In this document: positions 2,471 to 7,079 of the stretch, piece after piece
Layout: the number at the start of each line of letters is the position of its first letter
How positions within the stretch are numbered: position 1 is the first letter of the stretch
Position numbers and translations under genes: made by a program
Notes under the pieces: model-generated
Databases searched by the model: none
Seen by the model: only the letters and a program-made list of their open reading frames with translations
Told to the model about the DNA's origin: nothing
Source of the DNA: a virus
Taxonomy: Duplodnaviria; Heunggongvirae; Uroviricota; Caudoviricetes
IMG/VR virus record: IMGVR_UViG_2740892219_000002
Reading direction: 5' to 3' (one strand)
Length of the DNA stretch: 10,595 nt

Positions 2471-2484
2471 ATCAGCCCCCTGTG

Positions 2485-2512
2485 AAAAAAGACACGGGGG
2501 CATTTCGCCCCC
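2485..2512 (-). terminator. Putative intrinsic terminator or attenuator hairpin between E and FI: stem GGGGGC / GCCCCC with a 5-nt loop (2512-2496), a 5-nt spacer, then T6 on the transcribed strand (2490-2485).
   Basis: Seen directly: plus strand 2496-2512 gggggcatttcgccccc, plus aaaaaa at 2485-2490. Lies in the 51-nt gap between the E stop (2524-2522) and the FI start (2470). An alternative pairing (cccccgtg...cacaggggg) would sequester the T-run and the FI ribosome-binding site. Confidence 0.4.
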
Positions 2513-2521
2513 GCTCACGGA

Positions 2522-3550
2522 TTATTTCACCTGTACCACCACAAACTCATCCGGGTCCGGCAACACCATCAGCGGCGCGGACTGCGTCATGGTAAATTCA
2601 CGGGCGGGATCCCCCACCGTCAGCCAGTGTTTCGGATAACGGGAAGAGGCCACCACACCTTCGGACAACGCCTGAGCATCCTGAATGGCACCGTAACAAC
2701 GGATCCCATCTGCAGCAGTATTCCCCAGAACCAGCATGCCATCTGGAAGATAACGTTTTTCGATACCGTCTTCTGCTATATAAGACGTTTTCGCCACCAC
2801 AATGGCCAGATCGCCGTAATACCCCTTGAAGGACACCACTGCGCCCAGATCTTTCACTGCCGTTTCGAGTTGAGAATTTGAACCGCGACGGGTATCCAGT
2901 TTTTCGCGGAACAGCTTAAAACCATTCAGAAGACGCCAGACGGTACCGTCCATAATGGCAATATTCACAAGACCGCTGGCTTGGTCGCAGTAGAGGTCAA
3001 TATCATGTGTAGGATCGAACGTGTCACGATCCTGTTTTGACCACTCCTTACCACTACCCTGAGTGATGTTATTCTTCGTCGACCTGCCAAAATCGACCTC
3101 AATTTTCTCGAACTGGTCTCCTTCCATAGTGTATTTGCCATACAACACAGCATTTACCGCCTGCATTTCTTCCACCTGGACAATCGCGTGCTCTTCCTGT
3201 TTGAGGTTATCGGTAATGATACGCAGACGGCGGTAAGCCGGATCATTCAGTTGAGATGGATCTTCACCAGGAAGGCGCTCAACCGCCTGCTGGTAATTAA
3301 ATTCGTGTTTCGGCTTGACGTAGCCCGGACGCAACACGCGGGTTTCACCACCACGATGACGCAGCACTTTTCCTTCAACAACCGGGGAGACATAGGCCGC
3401 CACCGGCGTTTTTCCGGTAATTTTGTCCAGCATCACCTCTTCGGTATGGAAATTCACCGTACGGCGGAAAAACAGCTCCAGAAACAGCGCACGAAATTTA
3501 ACTTTTTGTTCGGTATAACCGAGTAACTGGCGGGTCGTAAACAATCCCAT
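2522..3550 (-). CDS. E: Major capsid protein, lambda gpE-like (342 aa)
   Basis: 342-aa ORF (lambda gpE is 341 aa) with conserved blocks such as PGYVKPKHE, DPAYRR.RII, QVEEMQAV, GKYTM.G, DTRRGSNS.LETAVKDLG, GDPAREFTM.QSAPLM. AAGGA lies 8 nt upstream of the ATG at 3550. Follows the D homologue as in lambda. Confidence 0.92.
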   Translation of the reverse strand: MGLFTTRQLLGYTEQKVKFRALFLELFFRRTVNFHTEEVMLDKITGKTPVAAYVSPVVEGKVLRHRGGETRVLRPGYVKPKHEFNYQQAVERLPGEDPSQLNDPAYRRLRIITDNLKQEEHAIVQVEEMQAVNAVLYGKYTMEGDQFEKIEVDFGRSTKNNITQGSGKEWSKQDRDTFDPTHDIDLYCDQASGLVNIAIMDGTVWRLLNGFKLFREKLDTRRGSNSQLETAVKDLGAVVSFKGYYGDLAIVVAKTSYIAEDGIEKRYLPDGMLVLGNTAADGIRCYGAIQDAQALSEGVVASSRYPKHWLTVGDPAREFTMTQSAPLMVLPDPDEFVVVQVK

Positions 3551-3578
3551 AAATCAGTTCCTTTCATTCAGAAATCAG

Positions 3579-3600
3579 TCAGGCCACCGCGGTGGCCTGA
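3579..3600. other. 22-bp perfect palindrome TCAGGCCACCGCGGTGGCCTGA in the D-E intercistronic region; predicted GC-rich RNA hairpin (9-bp stem, 4-nt loop).
   Basis: Seen directly. Lies 8 nt past the D stop (3610-3608) and about 14 nt before the E ribosome-binding site. No U-run follows on the mRNA, so it is not a classic terminator. Confidence 0.6.
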
Positions 3601-3607
3601 TAACGTG

Positions 3608-3955
3608 TTACGGCAGCGCCGCGTGACTCAGGGCACTGCCAGCAAAGGCGTTGGCCTTTTTGTGTTCATCCACACTTTCAGGCCAGTGGATTGCCTCCGT
3701 CGCAAAGGTTCCCGACTTGTAATACGTCAGCGCCGTCTCTGTGCCTTCAAGCGGCAGTACCAGTATGCCAACCGCACTACCGGCTTTCTGTCCGTCCCAG
3801 ACCACCAGTTTCCCGGTGGCTTCATCCAGCATCAGGGGCGTCAGTGCCGGTGTTGGCGAGGAAATCCCGCTGCTGCCTGTGGCGGTATGAGCCGGATCAT
3901 TACCGGCAAAAATACGTACTTCCGCACGCTGTTCAGTGATGGTTTTCGTCACCAT
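3608..3955 (-). CDS. D: Head decoration protein, lambda gpD-like (115 aa)
   Basis: 115-aa ORF (lambda gpD is 110 aa) with conserved DPAHTAT, TPLMLD, KLV.WDG, AVGIL, YKSGTF and AFAG motifs. AGGAGA lies 10 nt upstream of the ATG at 3955. Sits between C and E as in lambda. Confidence 0.9.
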   Translation of the reverse strand: MVTKTITEQRAEVRIFAGNDPAHTATGSSGISSPTPALTPLMLDEATGKLVVWDGQKAGSAVGILVLPLEGTETALTYYKSGTFATEAIHWPESVDEHKKANAFAGSALSHAALP

Positions 3956-3991: not shown

Positions 3992-4543
3992 TCATGGCAT
4001 GGCCATGAGCATTTTCACGTCCGCATCACCGTCTGCTGACGTCTGTGGCACGCCACCCTGTACCGCTGCCGGTGAATGGTTCGCCATGAAATGTTCAAAC
4101 ATGGCGGTTGTGGATGCAGAGACCGGTTCTGCCTTACCTGATCCCGCAGCCAGCACAGCCCGGGCGCTCTCCACAGTCATTCCCAGGCAGGCAGCCAGCT
4201 GTTCAGCCTGCGCCTCAGCCCCTTTTGCCTCATCCAGTGCCATGATCTGATCACGGAGTGAGGGTCCGGCATCCGCCTGCGGTGAAGCAGCCAGGATCGG
4301 GCGGGCTTTTTCCACCGTCATCTCCGGCATCGCCGCCAGCGTTGCCGCCAGTTGTTCACGACCTTTCGCTTCTTCACACGCCATAATGCGATCGGCTTCA
4401 CTCTGCGCGGGTACCACCGGCTGCTGTGGTGCCGCCGCGGCCAGAATCGCCCGGGCCTGTTCAACGCTCATGCCCTGTTGTCCTGCCAGCATCGTGGCAA
4501 GCTGTTCACGTCCTTTCGCTTCCTGGCATGTCAGGATCCCCAT
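3992..4543 (-). CDS. Possible nested in-frame scaffold protein (lambda Nu3 analogue), starting at the internal ATG at 4543 (residue M319 of C).
   Basis: Lambda expresses its scaffold Nu3 from an internal in-frame start inside C (established knowledge). Here AGGAGA lies 11 nt upstream of the internal ATG at 4543-4541 (seen), immediately before the repeat region. The exact start is inference. Confidence 0.35.
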   Translation of the reverse strand: MGILTCQEAKGREQLATMLAGQQGMSVEQARAILAAAAPQQPVVPAQSEADRIMACEEAKGREQLAATLAAMPEMTVEKARPILAASPQADAGPSLRDQIMALDEAKGAEAQAEQLAACLGMTVESARAVLAAGSGKAEPVSASTTAMFEHFMANHSPAAVQGGVPQTSADGDADVKMLMAMP

Positions 4544-5497: not shown

Positions 5498-7079
5498 GTG
5501 GTGTTGTCTCCTCTTCCGGCCTGCGACTCTCCGCTATCTGCTGCTGATACGCCTGCGCTATCCACACCGGACGTGAGAGTCCGGCTTTTTCCCGCTCTGC
5601 AGATTCCCTGACCTGCTGGCGGAAAATGTCCTGATAATCCTCGCCCATCAGCGCCAGCTCTTTCTCATACGTGCTCAGTCCGGCCTCAATGCGCATCACT
5701 GATTCCTGGACTTCCTTGAGCCCATCAATGGTCATTCTTCCGGCTCCAATCCACTCTGCCCGTGACCAGGCTGATCGCGCCTGATAAAAATCAAAACGTG
5801 CCCGTGGCGGACGAATAATCCCCCGAAGAAGTGCCTCTTCCAGCCAGCAGGAAAACATCTGCGTGGCCAGCCGGGCCGCAATAAATTTTCGCCGCCCCAT
5901 AAAATAGCGCCACGACTCATTGGCGGAGGCGCGGGCACTTGAGTAACTGACCTTCGAGTAATCACGGGACAACTGTTCGTAGGAAACGCCAAGACCGGCG
6001 GCGATATACCGCAGCAACGCCTGTTCAAGCGCAGAAAATCCATTGTCTGAATCCTGCGCAGTCTGTAGTTTCAGATCATCACCAGGGAAAAGGTGCGGAA
6101 TTTTGACACCGCCCAGTGTCACGTTATTCGTGTCATACCAGCTGGAGAACTTCTCCAGAATATTAATAAGCGGATTATCCTTCTGCTCCTGTGGCGCGCC
6201 GGCGATATATTCAAAGGCCTTTTCGGTATCAAGTTCACTTTCAATCGTCGCTGCATACATCGCCTTCACTATGGCCGACTGAAGCTGTGTTGCCTGCAGG
6301 GAATCGAGCATCTTCAGCCGTTCCATGACGCTGTAAAACTGATTAGCCCCACGAGTCTGCCCGTCCTCCACCGGCTCGAAAATATGCAGCATGGCCGGAC
6401 GCCCGGTGGCAAGTTCACGCGGGATCCGTTCCCATCGTCCACTACCAGAGAACGGAAAATCATCCTCACAGATATGGTACGCAACGGCACGGCCATATCG
6501 ATCGACCTCCACACCGGCCCGCAGAAAGCGGTTCCCCATACCGTGTCCTGGCGTGTCCACCCGTTTCGGACTCACGGCTTTAAAACGCGTACGAAATAAC
6601 TGCGTGGTTTCCGTATCCCAGACCGGCTGCACAAAGATTTCGCCGTTAAACGCATGAACGCCCACACCTTCACGGATAAATTCCGTAAATGTGCGTTTTC
6701 CTTCCACGTCGATCTCGCCAAACATCCCTTCTGCGTATTCCGACCAGGCCGCCTCCACCTCATCGACAAAGCTTTTTGCTGCGGTCTCCCGCATCCCCAG
6801 CCAGCGCCAGTTCGGACGGTAGCTGATCAGAAACATATGCCCGACAATGTGATCCTTATGCAGGGCCACCGCATTAGCCGCTATTCCGTTATTGCGCACC
6901 AGATCATCTGCCCGGGCATTCCCCAGACGCAACGCGGGCAGCAGGGCCGCATCGACACTCTGCGCCGGTGGCAACCACTCCGCCATTTGCCCGCCAAATC
7001 CTGCGCCGCCCCCGTTGTAGCTGAGACTCTCACGAAGCGGAACGCCGTTCACATCAATCAGGACAGGCGTTCGTTTCAT
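5487..7079 (-). CDS. B: Portal protein, lambda gpB-like (530 aa)
   Basis: 530-aa ORF (lambda gpB is 533 aa) with long conserved blocks (DAALLP, GNARADDLVRNNG, KRTFT..IREGV..HAFNGE.FVQ..WDT, LFRT.F..VSPKR, EPVEDGQTRGAN.FYSVME..KMLD.LQ.TQLQSAIVKAMYAATIESELDT, LLRYIAAGLGVSYEQLSR, ARASANESW.YFMGRRKF, GRM.IDGLKEVQE.VM.IEAGLSTYEKE). Start ATG at 7079 overlaps the W stop (ATGA). Confidence 0.93.
   Translation of the reverse strand: MKRTPVLIDVNGVPLRESLSYNGGGAGFGGQMAEWLPPAQSVDAALLPALRLGNARADDLVRNNGIAANAVALHKDHIVGHMFLISYRPNWRWLGMRETAAKSFVDEVEAAWSEYAEGMFGEIDVEGKRTFTEFIREGVGVHAFNGEIFVQPVWDTETTQLFRTRFKAVSPKRVDTPGHGMGNRFLRAGVEVDRYGRAVAYHICEDDFPFSGSGRWERIPRELATGRPAMLHIFEPVEDGQTRGANQFYSVMERLKMLDSLQATQLQSAIVKAMYAATIESELDTEKAFEYIAGAPQEQKDNPLINILEKFSSWYDTNNVTLGGVKIPHLFPGDDLKLQTAQDSDNGFSALEQALLRYIAAGLGVSYEQLSRDYSKVSYSSARASANESWRYFMGRRKFIAARLATQMFSCWLEEALLRGIIRPPRARFDFYQARSAWSRAEWIGAGRMTIDGLKEVQESVMRIEAGLSTYEKELALMGEDYQDIFRQQVRESAEREKAGLSRPVWIAQAYQQQIAESRRPEEETTPRET

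What the first reader, a model, noticed from the sequence alone, without database searches (positions are those of the whole stretch)
3579..3600. 22-bp perfect palindrome between the decoration (D) and major capsid (E) genes
TCAGGCCACCGCGGTGGCCTGA is a perfect palindrome placed exactly in the short D-E gap. On the mRNA it would form a very stable GC-rich hairpin (9-bp stem, CGCG loop) 8 nt after the D stop and just before the E ribosome-binding site. Possible roles are an mRNA-stabilising or processing (RNase III) element, a device to balance D:E translation, or a protein-binding site. No U-tract follows, so it is not an obvious terminator.
Basis: seen in the sequence. Interest (0 to 1): 0.45.

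Follow-up and report, generated by a model that had tools for sequence, protein, structure and literature searches.

The report
Conserved mRNA hairpin between capsid genes
The 22-bp palindrome is real and is phage 21's version of a GC-rich RNA hairpin that nearly all lambda-like phages carry between their head-decoration and major-capsid genes; in phage 21 it has lost the U-run that makes its relatives look like transcription terminators. It is an ordinary but untested piece of late-operon mRNA architecture.

Summary
TCAGGCCACCGCGGTGGCCTGA lies at 3579-3600, in the 57-nt gap between shp (gpD homologue, 3608-3955, minus strand) and gene 7 (gpE homologue, 2522-3550, minus strand). This stretch is 100% identical to phage 21.

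A palindrome this long anywhere in the window arose in 4 of 1000 dinucleotide shuffles. The gap folds with z = -3.15.

The exact 22-mer occurs essentially only in this context (118 of 119 viral contigs). The locus is present in 1865 of 5426 complete E. coli genomes.

About 70 distinct D-E upstream regions from diverse lineages almost all carry a GC-rich hairpin at this position. Stem sequences differ, with compensatory changes in 4 of 9 pairs.

In lambda, Gifsy-1 and most other lineages a T-run follows, so the element looks like an intrinsic terminator. In the phage 21 clade the T-run is degenerate and the terminator score is negative.

Within that clade the outer 8 stem pairs are about 5-fold less diverse than synonymous sites. 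The loop varies freely, and only 40% of loci keep the perfect palindrome.

A second conserved hairpin follows the capsid gene.

Best reading: an RNA-level element of the Q-antiterminated late mRNA, acting as a 3' exonuclease barrier or processing boundary with at most weak termination. RNase III and protein-binding readings are unlikely. It is a new member of a known kind, of low to moderate interest.

The parts
3579..3600 (-). 22-nt perfect palindrome; on the late mRNA a 9-bp stem (UCAGGCCAC/GUGGCCUGA) with a CGCG loop
   Evidence: stem conserved, loop variable within the clade; compensatory changes across lineages
3574..3604 (-). Extended hairpin: 4 further pairs (GUUA with UGAU) across a bulged C3578. 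Predicted only.
   Evidence: MFE and centroid structures
3608..3955 (-). shp, the head-decoration protein gene (lambda gpD homologue). Its stop codon lies 7 nt upstream of the hairpin.
   Evidence: Pfam HDPD E 1e-24; annotation of M81255.1 and OL657228.1
3551..3578 (-). Spacer plus translation-initiation region of gene 7 (SD AGGA at 3559-3562). Strongly conserved in the clade. Provides only a degenerate U-tract (CUGAUUUCUG).
   Evidence: nucleotide diversity 0.0096 against 0.075 at third codon positions
2522..3550 (-). Gene 7, the major capsid protein gene (lambda gpE homologue)
   Evidence: Pfam Phage_cap_E E 5e-64
2484..2514 (-). Second hairpin, just after the gene 7 stop: GCGGGGGC-GAAAU-GCCCCCGU followed by GUCUUUUUU. 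Together with the palindrome it brackets the capsid gene.
   Evidence: terminator-like scan; a hairpin at this position in essentially every lineage examined

Best explanation
The palindrome is the phage 21 clade's version of a stem-loop that lambda-like head operons conserve between the decoration gene (D/shp) and the major capsid gene (E/7). It acts as RNA, not as a DNA site.

In most lineages the element is a GC stem followed by a U-run, which is the form of an intrinsic terminator. In the phage 21 clade the stem was kept, and is even stronger (about -17 kcal/mol), while the U-run was lost.

The late operon is transcribed by Q-loaded, terminator-resistant RNA polymerase. That is established knowledge for lambdoid phages, including Q21. 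The hairpin therefore cannot be there to stop the productive late transcript.

The most likely mechanism is inferred, not shown. After read-through the hairpin forms on the polycistronic mRNA and blocks 3'-to-5' exonucleases (PNPase, RNase II), as REP and terminator hairpins do. It would thereby define a stable 3' boundary for the upstream ...-shp segment. Together with the second hairpin after gene 7, it would give the two high-copy head cistrons longer-lived message.

Any termination or pausing of polymerase that lacks Q is at most weak in phage 21.
For: Shown:
- Identity and position: 100% match to phage 21; gene identities.
- Almost every distinct D-E gap from lambda-type, Gifsy-type, Serratia, Buttiauxella, Trabulsiella and alphaproteobacterial lineages has a significant GC hairpin there. 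This includes non-homologous replacement hairpins in front of the same gene 7 ribosome-binding region (L043, L350).
- On an alignment of 23 hairpins, 94.7% of cells pair. Four of 9 pairs change on both sides. The covariation score is 0.451 against 0.219 in shuffles (0 of 500), and it collapses when the partners are slid.
- L300-type CAGGCCGC-ACA-GCGGCCUG plus UUCUGUUUUU links the phage 21 stem to the Gifsy-1 and lambda terminator-like stems.
- The terminator score is positive for lambda, Gifsy-1, L300, L350, L091 and L348, and -21 to -33 for phage 21.
- Within the clade (65 haplotypes), nucleotide diversity of the outer 8 pairs is 0.011-0.015 against 0.075 at third codon positions (resampling p = 0.018). 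The loop plus inner pair reach 0.17.
- The 22-mer is not a dispersed repeat: 118 of 119 occurrences are in the same context.
- A hairpin also follows the capsid gene in essentially all lineages.

Against: - No transcript-level data (3' ends, half-lives) were available, so the stabiliser mechanism is inferred.
- The whole 57-nt gap is conserved in the clade, not just the stem. Stem conservation alone is therefore not specific.
- There are no double compensatory changes inside the clade. A few loci carry uncompensated mismatches: L040, L051, L070, L075, L086.
- The near-universal U-run in other lineages argues that termination itself, not only the hairpin, is usually selected.
- One lineage (Providencia, L088/L089) has a 26-nt gap with no hairpin, so the element is dispensable.
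- A 3' barrier after shp would also stabilise the low-copy upstream cistrons.
Confidence: 0.5

Rival explanations
1. It is a weak intrinsic terminator or pause hairpin that acts as an insulator. It stops RNA polymerase that lacks Q (read-in or cryptic-promoter transcription in a lysogen) before the capsid and downstream genes, while Q21-loaded polymerase reads through.
For: Homologous hairpins in most lineages have canonical U-runs and positive terminator scores. The lenient scan lists the phage 21 site as terminator-like, with 5 T in 8 starting 2 nt after the stem. The same idea is offered for intra-late-operon terminators of P22-like phages in PMC8022706.
Against: In phage 21 the proximal tail is CUGAUUUC, with scores of -21 to -33. 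The clade that lost the U-run is very successful, occurring in a third of complete E. coli genomes, and still conserves the stem.
Confidence: 0.22
2. It is a translational device. A stable hairpin 7 nt after the shp stop codon hinders terminating ribosomes, as reported from memory for REP elements within 15 nt of a stop codon (Liang, Rudd and Deutscher 2015). Alternatively, it uncouples D and E translation and keeps the gene 7 initiation region unpaired, tuning the D:E ratio.
For: The hairpin starts 7 nt after the stop in phage 21, 3 nt in Gifsy-1 and 4-8 nt in L043, L303, L138 and L139. The region downstream of the hairpin is very conserved and largely unpaired.
Against: The distance from the stop codon is not conserved. 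It is about 17 nt in lambda and 20-32 nt in Kluyvera-, Trabulsiella- and Serratia-type gaps. D and E are needed in roughly equal, very high copy number, so down-tuning D is not obviously useful.
Confidence: 0.1
3. It is a non-functional relic of an ancestral terminator. Its stem persists through short divergence time or hitch-hiking with the conserved gap.
For: Uncompensated mismatches and a 1-nt deletion occur in some loci. The innermost pair is lost in a third of loci. Providencia lacks the element altogether.
Against: The outer stem is about 5-fold less diverse than adjacent synonymous sites (p = 0.018), while the loop is hypervariable. Independent lineages maintain or replace the hairpin.
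Confidence: 0.08
4. It is a DNA-level palindromic binding site for a dimeric protein, or a cruciform or recombination signal at the D/E module junction.
For: It is a perfect 22-bp dyad including the centre. The common CGCG-to-CATG variant keeps perfect symmetry. Mosaic junctions fall just downstream of the hairpin in L043, L350 and L150.
Against: Only 44 of 109 unbiased clade loci are perfect palindromes. A CACG intermediate exists, so the symmetric variant arose stepwise. Across lineages, pairing is kept while the sequence changes. There is a single copy per phage and no second site in the window even with 3 mismatches.
Confidence: 0.05
5. It is an RNase III processing site that separates the D and E messages.
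For: It is a stable intercistronic helix in a phage polycistronic mRNA. This is an analogy to the T7 and lambda N-leader sites, recalled from memory.
Against: The helix is 9 bp, or 13 bp with a bulge. Known substrates have about 20 bp. Homologues in other lineages have stems of only 5-9 bp.
Confidence: 0.03

Closest known systems
Lambda D-E intercistronic terminator-like hairpin (AAAGGCCGC-CUGU-GCGGCUUUUUUU, about lambda 6097-6120) and its counterparts in Gifsy-1 and other lambda-like prophages
   Same: It has the same position, between the gpD-family and gpE-family genes. It shares a GGCC/GCCGC-type GC-rich stem of 5-10 bp with a 3-6 nt loop. It aligns with the phage 21 stem, with compensatory A-U/G-C and C-G/A-U exchanges.
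   Different: Lambda-type and most other versions are followed at once by a run of 5-8 U and score as intrinsic terminators. Phage 21 has CUGAUUUCUG and scores negative. The phage 21 stem is longer and stronger, and in 40% of loci it is a perfect palindrome.
Intra-operon intrinsic terminators of lambdoid late operons (for example in P22/L-like phages; PMC8022706)
   Same: A hairpin element inside a single-promoter, antiterminated late operon at the edge of the procapsid gene module. Its function is acknowledged as unknown. The proposed roles are partial termination or blocking spurious non-antiterminated transcription.
   Different: The phage 21 element lacks the U-tract, so the terminator label does not strictly apply.
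REP/BIME extragenic palindromes and other U-less mRNA hairpins that block 3' exonucleases (malE-malF paradigm; established knowledge, not re-read here)
   Same: A stable GC-rich intercistronic hairpin without a U-run. The expected effect is protection of the upstream message.
   Different: It is not a REP. It does not match the REP consensus (compared from memory), it is single-copy, and it is found only in this phage context.

Membership tests
Conserved D-E intercistronic hairpin of lambda-like head operons | Located in the gap between a gpD-family and a gpE-family gene on the late strand | tested here: met
   Pfam HDPD and Phage_cap_E on the flanking ORFs; gap 3551-3607
Conserved D-E intercistronic hairpin of lambda-like head operons | GC-rich stem whose pairing is maintained across lineages by compensatory change | tested here: met
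   94.7% of cells paired, 4 of 9 pairs changed on both sides, 0 of 500 shuffles reach the observed score, slid controls collapse. Caveat: the rows are phylogenetically related.
Rho-independent (intrinsic) terminator | GC-rich stem-loop (stem of at least 5 bp, loop of 3-8 nt) | tested here: met
   9-bp stem, 6 G-C pairs, 4-nt loop, -16.8 kcal/mol
Rho-independent (intrinsic) terminator | U-rich tract (typically at least 4-6 U in 7-9 nt) immediately 3' of the stem | tested here: not met
   The tail is CUGAUUUCUG. The d'Aubenton-Carafa-type score (formula from memory) is -21 to -33, against +7 to +30 for homologues. It passes only the lenient scan rule.
Rho-independent (intrinsic) terminator | RNA 3' ends generated at the site by RNAP | not testable with these tools
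   No transcript data; needs Term-seq or in vitro transcription
REP/BIME elements | Dispersed multi-copy family with a conserved consensus in extragenic regions of the host chromosome | tested here: not met
   The exact 22-mer sits in the same shp-gene 7 context in 118 of 119 viral contigs. There is one copy in the window even with 3 mismatches.
RNase III processing site | About two turns (roughly 20 bp) of mostly continuous dsRNA | tested here: not met
   9 bp, or 13 bp with a bulge
Rfam RNA families | Match to any curated covariance model | tested here: not met
   Only a chance-level lncRNA hit (E = 5.1) in 3300-3900
Palindromic protein-binding operator | Sequence-specific half-sites conserved among relatives, usually several sites per genome | tested here: not met
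   Half-site sequences differ between lineages while complementarity is kept. There is a single site. Actual protein binding is not testable here.

The most novel reading that the evidence does not exclude
The two conserved hairpins, one just upstream and one just downstream of the major capsid gene, work as a pair. They would define a hairpin-capped, long-lived capsid message (5' protection from RNase E entry, 3' protection from exonucleases) carved out of the 20-kb late transcript. Head-protein stoichiometry in lambda-like phages would then be set partly by segmental mRNA stability. The phage 21 clade, which kept the stem and discarded the U-run, would be the natural experiment showing that the hairpin is selected independently of transcription termination.
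Probability: 0.2. Interest if true: 0.45.

Novelty: new member of a known kind. Interest (0 to 1): 0.22.

Why it matters
Hairpins and terminators inside antiterminated phage late operons are seen routinely in sequence, and their roles are still described as unknown (PMC8022706). This case contributes three things:
- It shows that the D-E hairpin is conserved by compensatory change across lambda-like phages.
- It shows that a second hairpin follows the capsid gene.
- It identifies one very widespread clade (a third of complete E. coli genomes) that keeps the stem without the U-run.

That contrast gives a clean handle for separating termination from RNA-stability functions experimentally. It does not overturn anything, and a specialist would not be surprised.

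Tried and rejected
1. Canonical terminator: rejected for phage 21 because of the tail, although its homologues qualify.
2. RNase III site: the helix is too short.
3. REP or mobile palindrome: the exact 22-mer is confined to this locus.
4. Rfam: nothing found.
5. DNA operator: there is a single copy, half-sites are not conserved, and perfect symmetry holds in only 40% of clade loci.
6. L035 as an apparent precise deletion of the palindrome: this was an artefact. A frameshift in its D gene fooled my stop-codon finder, and the palindrome is present.
7. My first within-clade diversity runs used a bad reference or included non-homologous D alleles. I redid them with the window as reference.
8. Literature: seven searches found no paper held in the library that analyses the lambda or phage 21 D-E hairpin. 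An eighth search looked for the REP/trans-translation paper. Liu et al. 2013 (ribosome profiling of lambda) is not held. My recollection that Sanger et al. 1982 and Smith and Feiss 1993 may have noted such dyads could not be checked.
9. The annotated 'Tri boxes' in gene 6 were not recovered as DNA direct repeats.

Full report
**What the window is.** The region 3400-3800 is 100% identical to the phage 21 head operon (M81255.1, OL657228.1) and to several 21-like coliphages. All head genes run on the minus strand. ORF 3608-3955(-) is shp, the gpD-family decoration protein (Pfam HDPD, E 1e-24). ORF 2522-3550(-) is gene 7, the gpE-family major capsid protein (Pfam Phage_cap_E, E 5e-64). Upstream lie the S49 protease/scaffold gene and the lambda-type portal gene. 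Neither GenBank record annotates anything in the shp-7 gap except the gene 7 ribosome-binding site.

**The observation.**
- TCAGGCCACCGCGGTGGCCTGA occupies 3579-3600, as two perfectly complementary 11-nt arms with no spacer.
- On the late strand, 7 nt separate it from the shp stop codon, 16 nt from the annotated SD (3559-3562) and 28 nt from the ATG.
- As RNA it folds into a 9-bp stem with a CGCG loop. An optional bulged 4-bp extension can be added. The hairpin appears in the MFE and centroid structures of the 57-, 81- and 221-nt contexts.
- A palindrome with arms of at least 11 nt appeared anywhere in the window in 4 of 1000 dinucleotide shuffles.
- The gap folds with z = -3.15, and 0 of 200 shuffles fold as well.
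- On energy alone the hairpin is only about the 8th best 36-nt window on this GC-rich strand. Its perfection and non-coding position, not its energy, make it stand out.
- Rfam has no match.

**Is it a dispersed element?** No. In 118 of them the flanks are the same shp-gene 7 context. The one exception, L150, is a junction into unrelated DNA 6 nt after the palindrome. The 121-nt locus occurs in 1865 of 5426 complete E. coli genomes, up to five times per genome. It is a very common prophage feature, not a REP-like repeat.

**Comparative anatomy.**
- I collected loci encoding relatives of the capsid protein from viral contigs and from one genome per species. From these I extracted the region upstream of the capsid gene start, giving 339 loci and 70 distinct sequences.
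- Almost every lineage has a GC-rich hairpin in the D-E gap:
  - lambda: AAAGGCCGC-CUGU-GCGGCUUUUUUU
  - Gifsy-1: GAAGGCCGC-GAA-GCGGCCUUUAU
  - Salmonella L300-type: CAGGCCGC-ACA-GCGGCCUG followed by UUCUGUUUUU
  - Serratia: GGCUGCC-AAUU-GGCGGCC followed by UUUUU
  - Kluyvera, Enterobacter, Klebsiella and Citrobacter types: AGCCGC-N4-GCGGCU followed by U6-7
  - two alphaproteobacterial relatives with only 31% capsid identity: AGGGCGCC-UCG-GGCGCCCU followed by UUCCUUUU
- Two close relatives of the phage 21 capsid gene carry other hairpins in front of the same ribosome-binding segment. In L350, with capsid 95% and D 74% identical, it is GAGCCGC-AUU-GCGGCUUUUGUUUUUU. In L043 it is a non-homologous CCUCCGGC-UAU-GCCGGAGG. 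The hairpin therefore travels with the 3' end of the upstream module and is replaced rather than lost.
- The only hairpin-less gap is the 26-nt gap of a Providencia prophage (L088/L089). An apparent second exception, L035, was my artefact.
- On a MAFFT alignment of 23 distinct hairpins, the 9-pair helix is paired in 94.7% of cells. Four pairs change on both sides (A-U/U-A, A-U/C-G, G-C/A-U, G-C/A-U). The covariation score is 0.451 against 0.219 for shuffles (0 of 500), and all measures collapse when the 3' partners are slid. The rows are related, and one (L092) is misaligned by a column, so this is good but not phylogeny-corrected evidence.

**Terminator or not.**
- A terminator discriminant, with the formula recalled from d'Aubenton-Carafa et al. 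1990 and therefore rough, is positive for lambda, Gifsy-1, L300, L350, L091 and L348 (+7 to +30). It is -21 to -33 for phage 21 however the stem is delimited, because the tail is CUGAUUUCUG.
- The lenient scan still lists the site as the second-best terminator-like site on the late strand.
- The element is therefore best described as a terminator-type hairpin that has lost its U-tract.

**Selection within the phage 21 clade.**
- Among 65 distinct 540-nt haplotypes (109 loci sampled by capsid similarity, not by the palindrome), nucleotide diversity varies sharply by position:

| Position class | Nucleotide diversity |
|---|---|
| Outer 8 stem pairs | 0.011-0.015 |
| Rest of the gap | about 0.009 |
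| Third codon positions of shp and gene 7 | 0.073-0.076 |
| Loop | 0.15 |
| Innermost pair | 0.21 |

- Resampling third positions gives p = 0.018 for the low diversity of the outer stem.
- Only 44 of 109 loci keep the perfect palindrome. In 36 loci G14 is changed to U, giving an 8-bp stem and a 6-nt loop. Eighteen have the symmetric centre CAUG, and one has the intermediate CACG.
- A few loci carry single uncompensated mismatches. Two carry wobble-preserving changes.
- An 8-bp stem is what is conserved, not the dyad symmetry. This favours an RNA hairpin over a symmetric protein-binding site. The caveat is that the whole gap is constrained, not just the stem.

**A second hairpin.** Directly after the gene 7 stop lies GCGGGGGC-GAAAU-GCCCCCGU followed by GUCUUUUUU (2484-2514). 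Essentially every lineage examined has a GC hairpin at that position too. Lambda has GGCCC-UUCG-GGGCC, Gifsy-1 has AAAGGCCUG-AUU-CAGGCCUUU, and even Providencia has one. The major capsid gene is thus bracketed by conserved hairpins, and each of the two high-copy head genes is followed by one.

**Mechanism.**
- It is established that lambdoid late operons are transcribed from one promoter by Q-modified polymerase that ignores terminators, and that Q21 is the structurally characterised example (cited in PMC8022706). The productive late transcript must therefore run through this site. The hairpin can then act only on polymerase lacking Q, or after transcription.
- The phage 21 clade has dropped the U-run yet conserves the stem. 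I therefore favour a post-transcriptional role: a barrier to 3'-to-5' exonucleases and a boundary of decay intermediates, as shown for REP and terminator hairpins in E. coli operons (established knowledge).
- This step is inferred. No transcript data exist here.
- The main rival is a weak terminator or pause that insulates the capsid and tail genes from Q-independent transcription. That is probably the primary role of the U-run-bearing homologues.
- Translational effects are possible. A hairpin 7 nt after a stop codon could hinder terminating ribosomes, as I recall being reported for REPs within 15 nt of a stop. However, the stop-to-hairpin distance ranges from about 3 to about 32 nt across lineages.
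- RNase III is unlikely because the helix is 9-13 bp. A DNA-binding site is unlikely for the reasons given above.

**Novelty and verdict.**
- The feature is real, non-random and evolutionarily maintained. It is a member of a known kind, the intra-operon terminator-like hairpins of lambdoid late operons, whose roles are explicitly described as unknown (PMC8022706).
- I found no paper in the held library that analyses this particular hairpin.
- What is mildly new is the comparative picture: compensatory conservation, bracketing of the capsid gene, and a natural U-less variant in a very widespread clade.
- Interest is low to moderate.

Noticed in passing
window 2484-2514 (-): There is a strong hairpin plus T-run (GCGGGGGC-GAAAT-GCCCCCGT GTCTTTTTT) in the 51-nt gap after the capsid gene 7 stop. 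A GC hairpin sits at this position in essentially every lambda-like lineage examined, including lambda's GGCCC-UUCG-GGGCC.
   Followed up: partly
L150 1-150 (IMGVR_UViG_2648501784_000004): This is the only occurrence of the exact palindrome outside the normal context. The shp 3' end and the palindrome are intact, but 6 nt downstream the sequence switches to unrelated DNA carrying another hairpin (AACCCCCAGCTAGGCTGGGGGTT). It is a deletion or mosaic junction right after the palindrome.
   Followed up: no
loci L022, L065, L320 and others; window equivalent 3588-3591: The centre of the palindrome varies as CGCG, CACG (one locus) and CATG (18 loci). The common double change keeps perfect dyad symmetry, but a one-step intermediate exists. 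L302 and L304 carry a partial duplication inside their hairpin (CAGGCTACAGGCCGCACAGCGGCAGCGGCCTG), suggesting slippage or template switching at these palindromes.
   Followed up: partly
L093-L108, L126-L134, L137, L142, L143 (genome contigs): D and E genes 97-100% identical to lambda (most of them 100%) sit on short, low-coverage contigs of unrelated organisms (Kitasatospora, Bradyrhizobium, Paenibacillus, Akkermansia, Prevotella, Enterococcus and others). This is almost certainly lambda DNA contamination of those assemblies.
   Followed up: no
MT713136.1 (Aeromonas phage AP1) 250152-250303: A 254-kb Aeromonas phage record carries 152 bp that are 99.3% identical to the start of phage 21 gene 7, with no annotated feature there. 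This is likely a chimeric or contaminated stretch.
   Followed up: no
window 3638-3659 (+): On the antisense strand inside the 3' end of shp there is a terminator-like hairpin (AAAGGCGTTGGCCTTT followed by TTGTGTTCAT). Overall the window has 23 terminator-like hits against 10.1 +/- 2.9 in shuffles.
   Followed up: no
window about 4133-4527 (-): M81255.1 annotates three 'Tri boxes' of about 110 bp (function unknown) inside scaffold gene 6. A direct-repeat search at DNA level found none, so any repeat there is weak or exists only at protein level.
   Followed up: partly
L088/L089 (Providencia alcalifaciens) upstream of the capsid gene: This is the only lineage with no D-E hairpin (26-nt gap). 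It keeps the post-capsid hairpin (GGCGGGG-AAA-CCCGCC followed by GATTTTTAT). It is a natural deletion variant that would be useful for testing function.
   Followed up: no
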